From Leucoraja erinacea (lineage: Eukaryota): a stretch of DNA of 64,000 bases. The stretch lies in contig NC_073405.1 in NCBI RefSeq assembly GCF_028641065.1, positions 4,464,001 through 4,528,000 on the forward strand. The letters run 5' to 3'. Numbering within the stretch: position 1 is the stretch's first letter; each line of letters opens with the position of its first letter. This document shows, piece by piece, positions 16,400-64,000 of the stretch. The notes beneath the pieces are model-generated. The model ran no database searches. It saw only the letters and a program-made list of their open reading frames with translations, and had not been told where the DNA came from. The position numbers were made by a program, and so were the translations under genes.

Positions 16400-16491
16400 G
16401 CGCCAAGATGGCGGCTGCGGCTGCGGTTCCACCCGGCCCGGCCGCTAGAGGGCGTAAGCCTCGACGTCCCAGCATCCCGCTTTGCCGCAGT
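16400..16491 (+). promoter_or_regulatory. RPL36 CpG-island promoter
   Basis: Consensus YY1 site CAAGATGGCGGC 16404-16415; CTCF-core-like CCGCTAGAGGGCG 16442-16454; ETS-like CTTCCGG at the presumed start. Confidence 0.7.
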
Positions 16492-16520
16492 CCTTCCGGT
16501 GTGGACGCCATTATCCGCAA
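16492..16520 (+). other. RPL36: probable non-coding exon 1 of RPL36 (pyrimidine/TOP-like start)
   Basis: ccttcc pyrimidine start in a CpG island followed by donor caa|gtaggt; exact TSS and donor (16521 or 16525) are inferred. Confidence 0.55.
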
Positions 16521-16949
16521 GTAGGTGAAGAGATGGATGCGAGTGCGATCGGGTTTTTATCCGCGCCATCCTCCGGCCGGGCGGCTCTTGCTGGGTGGGG
16601 ATGGGGAGAGCAGCCTTGTAGCCGGTGTCTGGGTAGAGTATTGGGTGTATGAGCGATGTATTGGAGCTGTAATTACGGGCGGAGCCGCCGTTGCTTCGTT
16701 CCCCTCTCCCATCTTCAGATCGGTGAAGCAGTCACAGTTCATGACTTTATCTCAGGTCCCCAGACCGTTGCCTGCTCTTCTAGGCACCAGGTGATTTGCC
16801 CCGGGCCTCGGGGACGGCCTTGAGTGCGGGTTCTGCATCTGTCGTGTGTCTCACTCACTCACACTCCAGTAAAACTGCCCCAAACCGCTGGTCGTTGTAC
16901 CCGGGGAGAAGCGGTTAGACAAGTGACCAGCCGCCTCTGTGGTTATAAT

Positions 16950-17310
16950 ATAGAAACATAGAAAATAGGTGCAGGAGTAGAGGCCATTCGGCCCTTCGAG
17001 CCTGCACCGCCATTCAATATGATCATGGCTGATCATCCAACTCAGTTACCCCATCCCTGCCTTCTCTCCATACCCCCTGATCCCTTTAGTCACATCTAAC
17101 TCCCTCTAAAATATAGCCAATGAACTGTGGCCTCAACTACCTTCTGTGGCAGAGAATTCCACAGATTCACCACTCTGTGTAAAAATAGATTTTTTCATCT
17201 GGGTCCTAAAAGACTTCCCTCTTATCCTTAAACTGTGACCACTAGTTCTGGACTTCCCCAACTTCGGGAATAATCTTCCTGCATCTAGCCTGTCCAATCC
17301 CTTAAGACTA
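16950..17310 (-). mobile_element. CR1/HER1-like 3' fragment
   Basis: KGLDRLDAGRLFPKLGKSRTSGHSLRIRGKSF on minus; (tagaaaca)n tail. Confidence 0.85.
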
Positions 17311-17441
17311 GAGATCAATCATGATTGAATGGCAGAGTAGACTCGATGGGCTGAATTCTTCTACTACAAAGACTTGTGTGAAAATGCTGGAGTAACTCAG
17401 CGGGACAGACTGGAGCAAAGGAATAGGGGACTGAAACGTTT

Positions 17442-17479
17442 CAGGTCTGAAGAAGGGTCTCGAACCGAAACGTCACCTG
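17442..17479 (+). ncRNA. minimal type-I hammerhead ribozyme motif inside a Penelope-like palindromic repeat
   Basis: CAGGU-CUGAAGA-A-GGGUCUCGAACC-GAAACGUC-ACCUG: stem I CAGGU/ACCUG is perfect, core intact, stem II weakened, palindromic ACGU stem III. Activity untested. Confidence 0.55.
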
Positions 17480-18661
17480 TTACATGGAGTTGCAGCTGGA
17501 GTGATGCTGTAGAATCTATATAGAGTACCCTCTGACTCCCGTTAGAGCGCCTTCAAGCAATGAATGACATTTCCAAAAGCCAATGTAGTTTTTCAGTGAA
17601 GCTTTACCAAAGGGTCATGAGATCTAAAACAATAACAATGACTTTCTGTCTCAAAATAAAGGCCTTCTAAGAACTGCAATTGTATTTCAAGAGACTAGTG
17701 AATCTATTTTTTAGTTCTGGCAGACCTGAATGCTGAAGTGCCTTAGTTGCTGTATTTTACATGTATTCATAACCCTCTGTGGCAAGATAGTTGTCTGAGA
17801 CTATTGTTCATTGTTCCAAGATTCTCCTGTCAACCAAAATTACCTCTTAGCTCATCTACCATTGTTACCATCTTAAGAGTGTAATGTTTTGATGTTATCT
17901 CCTTATTAAACTTCAGAACATATTGGAGCACCCCTTAAATTGCAGTGGTTTCCTCAGTTTTAGTAATACCAGATAATTAGACAGTACAATGAACAATGAC
18001 ACAAAAAGATTGCATTAATAATGTTCTAAATGTTTAAAATGAAGATTAGAATGTTATTAATTCTGCCATGTTTACTTAAAAGACAATGTTGGCATTTTTG
18101 CTAGTGTGGTTGATGTAGAAAGGTTATTCCATCAGTGTTTTGAATCTTTGAAAAGGGAATGTGAGACATGTAAGCATTTAGAATATTGACTTTATGGGCT
18201 TAATGCTCATTCCATAAATTTGAAAATCATTGTGCATGAAGTTAAATGTAAAAGTGTGAGTTGATATATTTTGATGTGAAGAATGGGAAACTGGTTCATG
18301 CTTGGTACAATTTTAAAATAAGTCTAAGAAGAAATAGACAATTTATGCTTCCATTTTTAAGTTAGGCAGATATGGTTTGGGTCTTAGTTAATTGGAAATA
18401 TATGGAGAGTTTGTATTGCATATTTGCCAGCAAATCAGCTATACATTGATAAAATGGAGAAATGGTTGCTTCCTTATGGCAAGAAGATATTTAAGAGATC
18501 AGACAAGTATTTTAAATCATAGTTTTCTATGTATGTAAACCAACTTCCTTTCATGAAATGTCCAGGACACAGCTAATGTGTCACTAAAATTGATGTAGAA
18601 CTTGTCAGCTTTATGCAATCATTTTTCTTGACTTTAAAAAAATGTCTATTTCTATACAGAA

Positions 18662-18754
18662 ATGGCAATCAGGTATCCTATGGCAGTTGGCCTGCACAAA
18701 GGCCACCCTATCACCAAGAATGAGAGAACCCCAAGGCAGTGTCGCAGACGCGGG
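18662..18754 (+). CDS. RPL36: 60S ribosomal protein L36, coding exon 1 (exon 2)
   Basis: Acceptor tatacag|aaATG; [31 protein letters not shown]; donor GGG|gtgagt. Confidence 0.96.
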
Positions 18755-18832
18755 GTGAGTAACCACTTGTTACAGTAGCTGCATGTTTTATTTCAATGCC
18801 CAATGTTTCACTTGACGGATGTGTTGAGAACT

Positions 18833-19090
18833 GCACAGTGGCACAACGGTAGAGCAGCTGCCATACAACAAAAGATACCCGGGTTCGATCCTGACGGTGG
18901 GTGCTGTCTGTACGGAGTTTGAACGTTCTCCCTGTGGCCGCATGGGTTTTCTCCGGTTTCCTCCCACATTCCACAGGGTTGTAGGTTAATTGGCTTCTGT
19001 AAATTGCCCCTAATGTGTGGGATAGAACCATGTCGGTATTTGTTGGTCGCCGCGGTTTCGGCGGGCCAAAGGGTCTGTTTCCATGCTGTC
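18833..19090 (+). mobile_element. tRNA-derived V-SINE (HE1-like)
   Basis: A box TGGCACAACGG, B box GGTTCGATCC (18882-18891), V-domain-like ggagtttg..gttctcc...ggtttcctcccaca, CR1-like 3' end. Confidence 0.85.
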
Positions 19091-19874
19091 ACAAAATGAC
19101 AGACTAGTCTTATAATAAGGGTCCTCTAAGAACTACATTTGTTTTTTAAGGGGCTAGTGAATCTATGTACAGTACAGTGCTTTATGGTTCTTCCGTTTAC
19201 TCTGATATTTAATTAATTCATGGCTGATGTGAATTTTTTGGATTTGATACCCATTCTTCTGCCTTATCTCTAGTGATTAATTCTGTAGTTCTCCACAACT
19301 GCACTAAGACCAAAGAAGACCTTGCCTTATCTTGCTGTTACTCTCTGCTCAGCCTCCTCGCCGAAGCATCATGAGCCAAAGCCCCACCACTTGCCTTCAC
19401 ATACGACACGCGCTTCAACACAAGCTCTCCCAAAATGGCCGCTCCACTTGTACCTTCTGCATTCTACACCACTTGGCACAGTCAATAGGTTTTAGAAACC
19501 CAGATATAATACATTCAATGGTTTCCCCTTTATCTACCCTGTTAGATACTCTCCGTAAATTAAATATATATTTTAAAGTGGTGCAAAAAACAAACTGCTA
19601 GAGGAACTCAGTGGGCCCAGCAGCATCTGTGGAGGAAATTAGACTGACGTTGTTTTGGGTTGGAACCCTTCAGTTCAAGCAGTTTGCTTCTTGATCATGA
19701 TTCTAGCGTCTGCAGTGTTTTGTCTCTTTAAATGTGGCTTTCCTTTTCATATATCCCAAGATAAAATCATGATCAAAAATGCTGCACAGTCTACCTGTTG
19801 AATTAGCAAGAATATCTCCACTAAAGAGACGTGGGTTTTGGAATTGAATGTGTTCCATGAATTGTCTTTTTCAG

Positions 19875-20009
19875 CGGCTGACCAAGCACACCAAGTTTAT
19901 CCGAGATCTGATCCGTGAGGTCTGCGGTTTTGCCCCTTACGAGAAACGTGCAATGGAATTGCTGAAGGTCTCTAAAGATAAGCGTGCACTCAAATTCATT
20001 AAAAAGAGG
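19875..20009 (+). CDS. RPL36: 60S ribosomal protein L36, exon 3
   Basis: tttcag|[45 protein letters not shown]|gtaagt. Confidence 0.98.
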
Positions 20010-20769
20010 GTAAGTAACAACATACCAAATATTTAATTTTCTGACCTTATGCATAATCTTAAATCTTTATTCCGGTCCTGTTACATATATAACTCTTATC
20101 TGAATATTCCCTTAACCTGTTTCAATGCACTTCATTGGTATCATCAAACATTTCTTGCAATATTTAACCTTTCTGTACTCAGTTAAATTATTCATCAACA
20201 GCTTGCATTTACTATTAAACCTACTAATACTGAAATAAGAAAATATTAAATATACTTTAGTGTCTTTCTATTGCTGACATTCAACAATCTGACGAAAGGC
20301 ACGGTAGCATTCGGAGCAATTTTGGCGTTTGTTTTGTGCTGCATTATTCATAATTCACAAAATAGGAAGTCCCACAGATAGCAACTCGAGTGAATTGTGG
20401 CTGTGAATTACATGTATGTTGCATGCTACGTACGTGTGTGAAATCTGGATAATTTGTGAGGGGTGTTGTTTGAAACTTACCCTAAGAGAACTGCACAGGT
20501 CGAGTTGCCTATGGATAAATTAGGCTTACAAGATGCAGCATTGTTTGTGGGTAAATGTAATGCTGTCAGTACTCAAAACATCAAATATATTACAGATTCT
20601 GGAAGTCTGAAATAAAAGCAGAAAATGTTCAGCAGGCTGGGTAACTAGAGCATTGACCATAATAAGTGGTCATGTTAACTTAAATTGTGTGTTAGAGGAT
20701 CTGGCAGGATGCAGCTTTTGTTCATGTCTGCAGTGTAAACATTCATTGAAATGTGTTCATTCCTTTTAG

Positions 20770-20859
20770 GTTGGGACTCATATTCGGGCCAAGAGGAAGA
20801 GGGAAGAACTCAGCAATGTATTGGCAGCAATGAGAAAGGCAGCAGCAAAGAAAGATTAA
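20770..20859 (+). CDS. RPL36: 60S ribosomal protein L36, last exon
   Basis: ttttag|VGTHIRAKRKREELSNVLAAMRKAAAKKD*; total 31+45+29=105 aa. Confidence 0.98.
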   Translation, partial: VGTHIRAKRKREELSNVLAAMRKAAAKKD

Positions 20860-20878
20860 TCTGTACCAAGTTGTTACC

Positions 20879-20884
20879 AATAAA
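20879..20884 (+). terminator. RPL36 polyadenylation signal
   Basis: AATAAA 20 nt after the stop codon. Confidence 0.85.
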
Positions 20885-22492
20885 ATCCATTTGTAAAGTT
20901 AACTTGTGAATAACCGGCTTTACATTTACAGTTGGACTATTTTTTCATGAAATAATTTATTGTATTTTATGTAGCCTTTTCATATTCATATTACCTTTTA
21001 CAAGTTAATGTGGCCCCTTTAATCTATACAGCTCACCATGTACTCCACCCTAACAAATTCCCCTTTGGATTTCCATAAATTCTAGAACTGTCTACATTCG
21101 GGGCATTCATCAGCAAGACAAGGTTACAATGTGCTCGTACATATAGAAATAAGGAAAGCACAAATGCATTGCTGGATAAATAATACAGAAGAGGGGGTTA
21201 TTCCTAGGACATTTGGATTAACTGGAGGAGGTGGGACCCATAAATACCAGCCCTTGTATGTTAGCGCGGGGACTAGTGACTAGAGGGATGTTTTGCTAGA
21301 AATGGGGCACCGATAGGAGATAAAAATAGACAAATCTAGCCAAGAAATCTTAATAGTATGGGGTAGGTTCAGATAAATCTAGTGTAAACACTACAATCAT
21401 TAAAACAAGGTTTTGTATGCTGCAAATTACAATTAGGTAATAACACCAATTTTTAAAAATTGCACTGGCTACAAGATGTTCAAAAAATAATGGAAGAATA
21501 TGCTGTTGAGAATATAGTATCAAGGACACAATCTGTTCAGTACTGGAACTATTCTGACTTGGGGGGTGGGGAGACAATGATCAGATTTGAGATGCCCAAA
21601 TGCCACAGTGATGGTGGGTGAGATTCCAACTATGCAAATCAGACAATAGAATAGAAGTGAGAAAAGGTTTTTTTTTTAGGATGTTTAAAACGCAATGGGA
21701 TAGGTGGCATAGCTGGAGATGGTTTTAGAAAATGTGCCAAGCCAAGTGGAACAAGAATCAATGGGAGAGGAACTAAGAGGCAACTGGACATTTGGAACAG
21801 CTATGAAAAATACAGTGCAACATTTCAAGTCATAAGTGATAGGAGCAGAATTAGGCCATTCGACCCATCATGTCTACCCGACCATTCAATCATGGCTAAT
21901 TGAGCTCTCCCTCTAGATTCCTCCCAACCCCATTCTCCTGCCTTCTCCCCATGACCCTAGATACGCATGGCCAATGAGATAATGGCTAATATTATTGGGT
22001 TAAAATACTTGTGGGTTTGGGGAAACTAAAATCAAAGCTTGGATTGATCAAAGAGAACTGTATGCAATTGAAGCTCGAGCTCTTGTATGTCCACATTACA
22101 GCACAGCAGGAAATGGTCAGCTTATTAATCAGACTGATTACAGAAACATGTCGGTGAGGAAGGAATGAGGAGACAGGTAAGAAGTGTAGGAATTAAAAAC
22201 AAATCTTTTAGATATGTGAACTTGGGTTTTGAAAGACATCGGGGCAACCAGAAACATAGCAGGAGACCATTGAGTTCTTTGTGTCTACTTTTTCCATGCA
22301 TCAAGATCATAGCTGACATTTCTCATAGCTCTCAGTTCACTTAATACCTAGACCAAAACAAATAGATCACAGTACGGGTGAGGTAATGCTGAGGTCTGTG
22401 GTTGAGATTCTGAATGGGGTAAAAATTAAGAGGCGGTAATGAATAATGCTAATTGTACTTGGCGGGGTTTGATGTCTGAGGTTGTTGACAGT

Positions 22493-22540
<48 letters not shown>
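22493..22540. repeat. poly-G run (48 nt)
   Basis: Uninterrupted G tract; length may be a sequencing artefact. Confidence 0.9.
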
Positions 22541-46658: not shown

Positions 46659-46828
46659 NNNNNNNNNNNNNNNNNNNNNNNNNNNNNNNNNNNNNNNNNN
46701 NNNNNNNNNNNNNNNNNNNNNNNNNNNNNNNNNNNNNNNNNNNNNNNNNNNNNNNNNNNNNNNNNNNNNNNNNNNNNNNNNNNNNNNNNNNNNNNNNNNN
46801 NNNNNNNNNNNNNNNNNNNNNNNNNNNN
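46659..46828. other. assembly gap (170 N) in LONP1 intron 1
   Basis: Run of N. Confidence 1.
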
Positions 46829-63802: not shown

Positions 63803-64000
63803 ACAAAGAACTGCTGATGCTGGTTTATAACAAAGATAGACACAACGTGCTGGGGTAACTCATCAGGCCAGGCAACATCTCTGGAGAAAAAGGATAGGCG
63901 ACGTTTTAGGTTAGGACCCTTCTTCAGATTTCTGAAGAAGGGTCCCAACCCGAAACGTCACCCATCCATTTTTTTTCTAGAGATGTTGCCTGACCCACTG
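63803..64000. mobile_element. palindromic Penelope-like-derived repeat with two inverted hammerhead motifs (truncated by window edge)
   Basis: Arms converge on gacgttttaggttaggacccttcttcag-attt-ctgaagaagggtcccaacccgaaacgtc. Confidence 0.8.

What the first reader, a model, noticed from the sequence alone, without database searches (positions are those of the whole stretch)
17442..17479. Complete minimal hammerhead ribozyme fold in the sense strand of RPL36 intron 1
Seen: CAGGU CUGAAGA A GGGUCUCGAACC GAAACGUC ACCUG. It has the CUGANGA and GAAA core boxes, a GUC cleavage triplet (cut after 17474), a perfect 5-bp stem I (CAGGU/ACCUG), an extra A after A9 and a loop-less palindromic stem III (ACGU). 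Known: Penelope-like retroelements carry minimal type-I hammerheads with a palindromic stem III thought to work as dimers, and an extra A at that position is tolerated in a viroid hammerhead. This copy is unusual because its flank restores stem I and it lies in the pre-mRNA of a ribosomal protein gene. Caveat: stem II has a mismatch (GAACC versus family GACCC), and a single copy should cleave poorly.
Basis: partly seen in the sequence, partly recalled or inferred. Interest (0 to 1): 0.7.

Follow-up and report, generated by a model that had tools for sequence, protein, structure and literature searches.

The report
Locked Penelope hammerhead relic in RPL36
The tiny self-cutting-RNA motif is really there, inside a ribosomal protein gene, but it is one worn copy of a jumping-gene end found over ten thousand times in this genome; its 'restored' stem comes from the element's own mirror-image arm, and that arm is predicted to fold it shut, so it is likely an inert passenger.

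Summary
The motif is as described, sense to RPL36, in the inferred intron 1. It is one copy of a Penelope-like (PLE) terminal repeat whose 31-nt core has 10,833 exact copies in this genome. Stem I is not restored by host flank: its 5' strand is the element's own inverted arm. That fold-back junction occurs 468 times and gives a stem I of 4 bp or more in 12 of 20 loci checked. At least 55 other copies have a 5-bp stem I and an intact stem II, which this copy lacks. With flanks included, the hammerhead-compatible fold drops from 28% to 0.05% or less. The gene holds no second sense core for a dimer. Two relatives share 17452-17522 unchanged, stem II mismatch included, but are too close (2-3%) to show selection. 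One oddity: a local palindrome supplies a second GAAA, so the locus can be drawn as a type-GCS non-circularly permuted hammerhead; this is untested and predicted unfavourable. The scan reported this family before in this genome, and similar intronic copies in other genomes. Verdict: ordinary PLE relic, likely inert.

The parts
17381..17446 (-). Inverted (mirror-image) arm of the PLE terminal repeat, decayed; its last letters supply the 5' strand of stem I
   Evidence: blastn to family 3' arms, 78% over 59 columns on the minus strand; alignments with fold-back loci
17431..17444 (.). Perfect 14-bp palindrome made by a short extra piece in the inverted arm; contains a second GAAA (17433-17436) and overlaps the stem I 5' strand
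   Evidence: palindrome test; 10 genome matches of a junction with a second GAAAC, this one included
17442..17446 (+). Stem I 5' strand (CAGGU); fold-back junction form with a likely CpG-decay G>A
   Evidence: CpG decay is inference
17447..17454 (+). CUGAAGA core box plus the family's extra A after A9
   Evidence: sequence; extra nucleotide is a described min-HHR trait (PMC4209133)
17455..17466 (+). Stem II/loop II with a G.A mismatch at the third pair (17464 A; C in about 91% of laid family RNA reads)
   Evidence: table 3
17467..17474 (+). GAAA box, loop-less palindromic stem III (ACGU) and GUC triplet; predicted scissile bond 17474/17475
   Evidence: sequence; cleavage not tested
17475..17479 (+). 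Stem I 3' strand (ACCUG); ACCU is family sequence, the G is a substitution in a decayed right arm or the first flank base
   Evidence: alignment to L017 runs on to 17500 at 83%; unchanged in organisms C and E
17427..17479 (+). Alternative type-GCS layout (hypothesis): block G 17427-41, block C 17442-61, block S 17468-79
   Evidence: helices checked by duplex folding; layout defined in PMC10085705; untested
16521..18659 (+). Host RPL36 intron 1 (inferred limits)
   Evidence: GT..AG ends; downstream exons hit PF01158; not checked by spliced reads

Best explanation
This is a decayed fold-back copy of the terminal repeat of a very abundant Penelope-like retrotransposon, sitting sense in the RPL36 gene and likely doing nothing. 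Shown: the family, its copy number, its place just behind the element's reading frame, the inverted arm and the recurrent junction. Inferred: during insertion the new DNA likely folded back on its own stem II sequence, so the mirror image of the stem II 3' strand came to lie right before CUGA. The family sequence after the GUC triplet resembles that same strand, so a 3-4 bp stem I forms automatically; one CpG-type change and one further base extended it to 5 bp. Predicted: in the pre-mRNA the inverted arm pairs with the GAAACGU core, stem II is broken and no dimer partner is near, so the intron is spliced uncut. The insertion predates the split from at least two related species and has likely drifted neutrally.
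For: 10,833 exact core copies, 0 for the reversed control. Family stem I is usually short: 28 of 30 loci have 2 WC pairs or fewer. 939 of 10,833 have GGT upstream. 55 copies have 5 WC pairs plus intact stem II from just two patterns. 468 exact fold-back junctions; 12 of 20 such loci have a stem I of 4 bp or more with wobble, 9 of 20 by WC pairs alone. Core lies about 85-145 nt behind the element's reading frame in 7 of 8 loci printed, of 10 fetched; a 601-aa frame of the family hits RVT_1 at E 1.4e-4. Hammerhead-compatible share of the ensemble: 0.28 for the 38-mer, 4.5e-4 to 5.9e-6 in four flanked versions. Catalytic dimer -14.3 kcal/mol against -27.6 for two monomers and -34.9 for a non-catalytic palindrome dimer. 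One sense core only in 16480-22500. Organisms C and E share the stem II mismatch. Family-derived RNA reads run on past the scissile bond (2,830 loose-end reads behind 17477/17478 in X24, 4,889 in X22) and no start or end peak was found. A single S. mansoni min-HHR showed no cleavage in vitro (PMC4209133).
Against: All catalytic core letters and the G10.1-C11.1 pair are intact, true of only 4 of 16 cores in the window. Natural hammerheads with a 2-bp stem II are common and active (PMC3088659 passages), so the mismatch need not be fatal. 17452-17522 has no difference in two relatives, while 9 sites vary in the next 198 nt (P about 0.04-0.09 for the 71 nt, boundary chosen after the fact; 0.28-0.39 for the 28 motif letters). 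Folding energies ignore pseudoknots, Mg2+, proteins and co-transcriptional folding. The RNA reads come from other copies, strand is not resolved, and cut RNA is under-sampled in such libraries. The RT Pfam hit is below the curated cut-off and no GIY-YIG model hit.
Confidence: 0.86

Rival explanations
1. The locus folds in one strand as a type-GCS non-circularly permuted hammerhead: the second GAAA at 17433-36 serves as G12-A15.1, the inverted arm completes stem III with 17468-73, a new stem II forms between 17456-61 and 17427-32, and stem I is. This would remove both the dimer need and the stem II mismatch and give slow monomer cleavage.
For: All three helices can be written: stem II 6 bp (two G.U, -5.7 kcal/mol as a duplex), stem III 6 bp (-3.5), stem I 5 bp (-5.1). 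The order G-C-S matches the GCS type; the one GCS RNA tested cleaved at 0.014 per min in 25 mM Mg2+, and it too has very short linkers, 2 and 0 nt (PMC10085705). Insertions of up to two letters beside CUGAnGA are known. The predicted minimum-energy fold already holds most of this stem III.
Against: G10.1.U11.1 wobble instead of G-C, and a 2-nt insertion after A9. Only 11 nt run from A15.1 to the core against 17 in the tested GCS RNA, so stems would have to be shortened (geometry reasoned, not modelled). The competing hairpin is -13.8 kcal/mol. All three helices follow from the family's internal GAC/GUC repeats, so they need no selection; 9 other junction copies also have a second GAAAC. No covariation is available, and the 5' half was not recovered in relatives.
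Confidence: 0.06
2. The copy is a weakly active type I hammerhead that cuts a small share of RPL36 pre-mRNA as a trans dimer with another transcript or with protein help, with no selected role.
For: Core intact; stem I pairs at 0.69-0.99 in the isolated 38-mer. Dimeric and trimeric min-HHR constructs show low activity (PMC4209133). Family RNA is abundant in both laid RNA runs.
Against: The catalytic dimer is less stable than two monomers even without flanks (-12.9 against -14.6) and far less with them. No cis partner. Partners would need matching stem I strands, which most family copies lack.
Confidence: 0.06
3. The copy has been co-opted, like the conserved intronic hammerheads of amniotes, to tune RPL36 pre-mRNA splicing or decay.
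For: Sense orientation; insertion shared by three relatives laid (organisms B, C, E); no change at 17452-17522 in C and E. Precedent of domesticated intronic hammerheads (PMC6155905 passages).
Against: The shared sequence includes the stem II defect. Conservation of the motif letters is not significant at this depth. Location is expected by chance. Fold predicted shut. No canonical stem III, and no loop 1-loop 2 partner was identified.
Confidence: 0.02

Closest known systems
Minimal type I hammerheads (min-HHR) in pLTRs of metazoan Penelope-like elements (Cervera and De la Pena 2014, PMC4209133; read: parts 1-2 of 4 of the main text)
   Same: CUGANGA and GAAA boxes, one extra letter between positions 9 and 10.1, G10.1-C11.1, palindromic 15.2-16.2 with no loop 3, short stem I; mostly single dispersed copies from truncated PLEs; some pairs close together on opposite strands.
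   Different: This copy has a broken third pair in a 4-bp stem II, sits against its own inverted arm and has no tandem partner. The parts read do not name a cartilaginous-fish family.
Inverted 5'-truncated insertions of EN+ PLEs (Craig et al. 2021, PMC8557442; read: passages)
   Same: An inverted truncated copy next to the pLTR makes an inverted-repeat structure; hammerhead near the 3' end behind an RT-EN frame.
   Different: Here the turn-around lies at the hammerhead itself, the whole insert is about 100-120 nt and the right arm is largely lost. PLE clade not tested.
Type-GCS non-circularly permuted hammerhead GCS-1 (Eckert et al. 2023, PMC10085705; read: abstract, sections 13, 15, part 1 of 18, passages, supplement passages)
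   Same: Block order G-C-S, GUC triplet, near-zero linkers, a four-pair inner stem II of similar letters.
   Different: GCS-1 has stems of 4, 8 and 7 bp, G-C at 10.1-11.1 and no insertion. The window layout has a wobble at 10.1, a 2-nt insertion, shorter stems I and III, and a strong competing hairpin.
Conserved intronic hammerheads of amniotes, such as RECK (review PMC6155905; read: passages)
   Same: Type I motif, retroelement origin, intronic position.
   Different: Those are conserved across birds and mammals and drawn with tertiary contacts; this is one of thousands of repeat copies with only shallow, uninformative conservation.

Membership tests
Truncated/inverted PLE pLTR remnant carrying a min-HHR motif | Homology to a high-copy family whose motif lies just 3' of an RT-bearing reading frame | tested here: met
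   10,833 exact cores; core about 85-145 nt behind the frame in 7 of 8 printed loci; RVT_1 hit at E 1.4e-4, below cut-off
Truncated/inverted PLE pLTR remnant carrying a min-HHR motif | C-terminal GIY-YIG endonuclease in the parent element | tested here: inconclusive
   No Pfam GIY-YIG hit; a Cys-rich LYIGET-type stretch is seen and read as the PLE endonuclease from recall
Truncated/inverted PLE pLTR remnant carrying a min-HHR motif | Inverted truncated copy adjacent to the repeat | tested here: met
   17381-17446 aligns in reverse to family 3' arms
Intact min-HHR (Cervera and De la Pena) | CUGANGA, GAAA and NUH triplet | tested here: met
Intact min-HHR (Cervera and De la Pena) | Extra nucleotide after A9, G10.1-C11.1 pair, palindromic 15.2-16.2 | tested here: met
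   17454 A; 17455-17466 G-C; ACGU at 17470-73
Intact min-HHR (Cervera and De la Pena) | Continuous stem II | tested here: not met
   G.A mismatch at the third pair; two pairs in the family register or three in a shifted one
Intact min-HHR (Cervera and De la Pena) | Second motif nearby on the same RNA for dimer folding | tested here: not met
   One sense core in 16480-22500; the intron 2 remnant is antisense
Intact min-HHR (Cervera and De la Pena) | Site-specific self-cleavage | not testable with these tools
   Needs in vitro assay or end-specific sequencing
Type-GCS permuted hammerhead | Blocks in the order G, C, S with three helices | tested here: met
   Helices of 6, 6 and 5 bp can be written
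Type-GCS permuted hammerhead | Conserved G10.1-C11.1 pair | tested here: not met
   G.U in this layout (17456/17432)
Type-GCS permuted hammerhead | Covariation or shown cleavage | not testable with these tools
   5' half not recovered in relatives; no assay
Domesticated intronic hammerheads of amniotes | Conservation beyond neutral expectation across distant species | tested here: inconclusive
   Only relatives at 2-3% divergence were laid; P(0 changes in 28 nt) 0.28-0.39

The most novel reading that the evidence does not exclude
Fold-back insertion of a Penelope end built, by accident, a self-sufficient type-GCS non-circularly permuted hammerhead in RPL36 intron 1: the inverted arm supplies a second GAAA, stem III and a replacement stem II, turning a dimer-only ribozyme into a one-strand cutter. 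It would be a eukaryotic GCS example and would show a route by which such permutations arise, which PMC10085705 leaves open.
Probability: 0.06. Interest if true: 0.65.

Novelty: new member of a known kind. Interest (0 to 1): 0.15.

Why it matters
As most likely read, it matters little: it shows how PLE fold-back junctions mass-produce hammerhead look-alikes with a closed stem I, a caution for motif scans in such genomes. If the GCS reading held, a transposon's insertion mechanism would be shown to create permuted ribozymes, and a 60-nt RNA with two distinguishing point mutants would test it cheaply.

Tried and rejected
Rfam scan at E <= 10: no hammerhead family matched; this says only that the motif is below those models. 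'Host flank restores stem I': rejected, the 5' strand is element-derived. Type II reading using the upstream GAAA with cleavage at the upstream GUU: rejected by inspection, only 6 nt are left for stem I and its loop. Cis dimer partner in the gene: none. Run search: no RNA holder listed. Locus-specific RNA depth in the unique intron right of the motif was 0-2 in X24 and 0 in X22, so no test of cleavage at this locus was possible. The left junction was not among the longest pieces in organisms C and E, and organism D had no piece over most of 17532-17693; a hole proves nothing. Of 24 runs listed, 6 were laid (X3, X6, X10, X11, X22, X24); neither lay spanned a splice junction. Pfam on two endonuclease-side frames: 0 of 2 hit. 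In one search two of ten ORF loci (L107, L109) were dropped by my motif filter before counting. Lunse et al. (PMC5785218) is not held; I saw only its title in a reference list and a review's summary, and its variant classes may bear on this motif. PMC3365414 had no ribozyme passage. Energies were not calibrated on the published GCS RNA; that comparison is by stem and linker lengths only. Searches listed no paper on a hammerhead in an RPL36 intron or on this fish family (listings only; no search used the gene name). The supplement of bioRxiv 10.64898/2026.07.22.740005 was not seen and may list this family.

Full report
1. Observation. The RPL36 coding exons are on the same strand. The motif lies between an inferred non-coding exon 1 (donor at 16521) and the acceptor at 18659; these limits come from sequence only. 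The core pattern is enriched in the window, 16 matches against 6.42 expected, which points to a repeat. The 38-mer is no more stable than its shuffles (z = 0.26), and Rfam found no hammerhead.

2. What it belongs to. The family form of the 31-nt core occurs 10,833 times exactly in the genome, the reversed control 0 times. The window holds 16 cores within 8 substitutions, 4 of them with all catalytic letters, so a sense core in a 2,140-nt intron is expected with probability about 0.23. Some copies continue upstream into a reading frame. A search with one such frame gave 150 scored matches among 108,132 first-look candidates. In 7 of the 8 loci printed (10 fetched) the core lies about 85-145 nt behind the frame. 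A 601-aa frame hits RVT_1 weakly; its C-terminal part is read as a PLE GIY-YIG endonuclease from recall, since Pfam did not hit it. This fits Penelope-like elements, whose pLTRs carry minimal hammerheads with exactly these traits and are mostly found as single dispersed motifs (PMC4209133, parts 1-2). That the host is a ray- or skate-like fish comes from earlier scan notes and recall; it was not tested here.

3. Where stem I comes from. But the letters 5' of the core are not host flank. 17381-17446 is the reverse complement of the family's own 3' arm and core end. Inverted truncated copies beside the pLTR are a described PLE trait (PMC8557442 passages). The same junction occurs exactly 468 times, and 26 of the first 100 listed (counted by eye) carry the A seen here, a CpG-type change. 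The junction places the mirror image of the stem II 3' strand before CUGA, and the family letters after GUC resemble that strand, so stem I closes by construction: 12 of 20 junction loci have 4 or more pairs, 9 of 20 by WC pairs alone. Genome-wide, 939 exact cores have GGT upstream, and two of the possible 5-bp patterns alone give 51 + 4 copies with stem I and stem II both perfect. The fifth pair here needs G17479, either a substitution in a decayed right arm (alignment to L017 reaches 17500) or a flank base.

4. Can it fold? In the bare 38-mer stem I pairs at 0.69-0.99 and 28% of the ensemble is hammerhead-compatible. In four flanked versions stem I pairs at 0.002 or less and the compatible share is 4.5e-4 to 5.9e-6, because 17436-17442 pairs with the GAAACGU core. 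The catalytic dimer is -12.9 kcal/mol against -14.6 for two monomers without flanks, and -14.3 against -27.6 with them; a non-catalytic dimer through the palindrome reaches -34.9. The gene holds no second sense core. Of 9 loci with perfect stems that I folded with 60-nt flanks (9 of 55), one (L066) has stem I at about 0.5, two at about 0.1, six at 0.02 or less; the window copy is at 0.00. Against my reading: 2-bp stems II are common in active natural hammerheads (PMC3088659 passages), and these energies leave out pseudoknots, Mg2+ and proteins. A single min-HHR showed no cleavage and dimers only low cleavage in PMC4209133. For an Anolis PLE, no RNA-seq reads began or ended at the cut site (PMC11167929 passages).

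5. Relatives. Contigs of organisms B, C and E start inside the core (17449 or 17452) and run into the unique intron at 2-3% divergence, so the insertion is shared. In the narrow lay the pieces of C and E carry 3 and 2 other letters over 17452-17567, all accounted for by sites at 17523-17543 seen. They therefore equal the window over 17452-17522, including the stem II mismatch and the stem I 3' strand. B has one difference that I could not place. Three shared sites group C with E against the window and B, so the mismatch is likely ancestral to all four. Nine sites vary in 17523-17720; no change in the 28 motif letters has P 0.28-0.39, and in the 71 letters P 0.04-0.09 with a boundary chosen after the fact.

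6. RNA. Two raw RNA runs of the same species label were laid in part (about 5% and 1% of each run). Reads from other family copies continue past the scissile bond in family sequence (1,834 + 996 in X24; 3,173 + 1,716 in X22), and no place showed many starts or ends. This is weak evidence: strand is unresolved and cut RNA is under-sampled. The locus itself could not be tested.

7. One real oddity. The inverted arm holds a perfect 14-bp palindrome (17431-17444) that brings a second GAAAC. Ten junctions genome-wide have a second GAAAC, this one included; 6 of the other 9 look like a repeated fold-back. With it the locus can be drawn in the order G-C-S of PMC10085705: stem II 17427-32 with 17456-61, stem III 17436-41 with 17468-73, stem I as before. 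The single GCS RNA tested there cleaved at 0.014 per min and also has linkers of 2 and 0 nt, and the authors leave the origin of such permutations open. The window layout has a wobble at 10.1-11.1, a 2-nt insertion, shorter stems and a -13.8 kcal/mol competitor, and all its helices follow from the family's internal repeats. I give it 0.06.

8. Mechanism and verdict. Shown: family membership, copy numbers, inverted arm, recurrent junction, shared insertion with a shared defect. Inferred: fold-back priming at insertion and neutral drift since. Predicted: a locked hairpin and no cleavage. It works like a dead PLE min-HHR; it is not filed as an intact min-HHR, because a continuous stem II and a partner copy were tested and not met. 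Earlier scan notes reached like readings for this family and for intronic copies in other genomes; they are unchecked AI notes and not counted as support. Interest 0.15.

Noticed in passing
L066 (G000:C3:4005304-4005341, minus strand): A family copy with perfect 5-bp stem I and intact stem II whose predicted fold stays open in context (stem I about 0.5, stem II about 0.7); a better candidate for a cleavage test than the window copy. Gene context not checked.
   Followed up: partly
L090-L093, L096, L098, L099: A subfamily with a different stem II (UUCG loop, wobble closing pair in most) and a GUU triplet keeps the hammerhead layout; several copies show a double fold-back that brings a second GAAAC.
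   Followed up: partly
window 17384-17401 in run X22: Read depth on the inverted arm is about 2,330-2,516 on + against 44 on -, while the core is about 3,000 against 5,560. Unexplained; may come from how split reads are classed or from internal oligo-dT priming.
   Followed up: no
window 19590-19671: Older antisense remnant of a related PLE end in RPL36 intron 2, 72% to family arms, with a degenerate core.
   Followed up: partly
window 63897-63963: Two cores on opposite strands a few bases apart, another head-to-head fold-back insertion.
   Followed up: no
window 17100-17356: Pieces of another very high-copy repeat directly upstream of the insertion, with deep pile-ups in all four DNA runs; family not identified here.
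   Followed up: no
window 18830-19080: tRNA-headed SINE-like element in RPL36 intron 2, judged by eye and from recall (V-SINE-like); not tested.
   Followed up: no
window 46659-46828: Run of 170 N, far from the finding.
   Followed up: no
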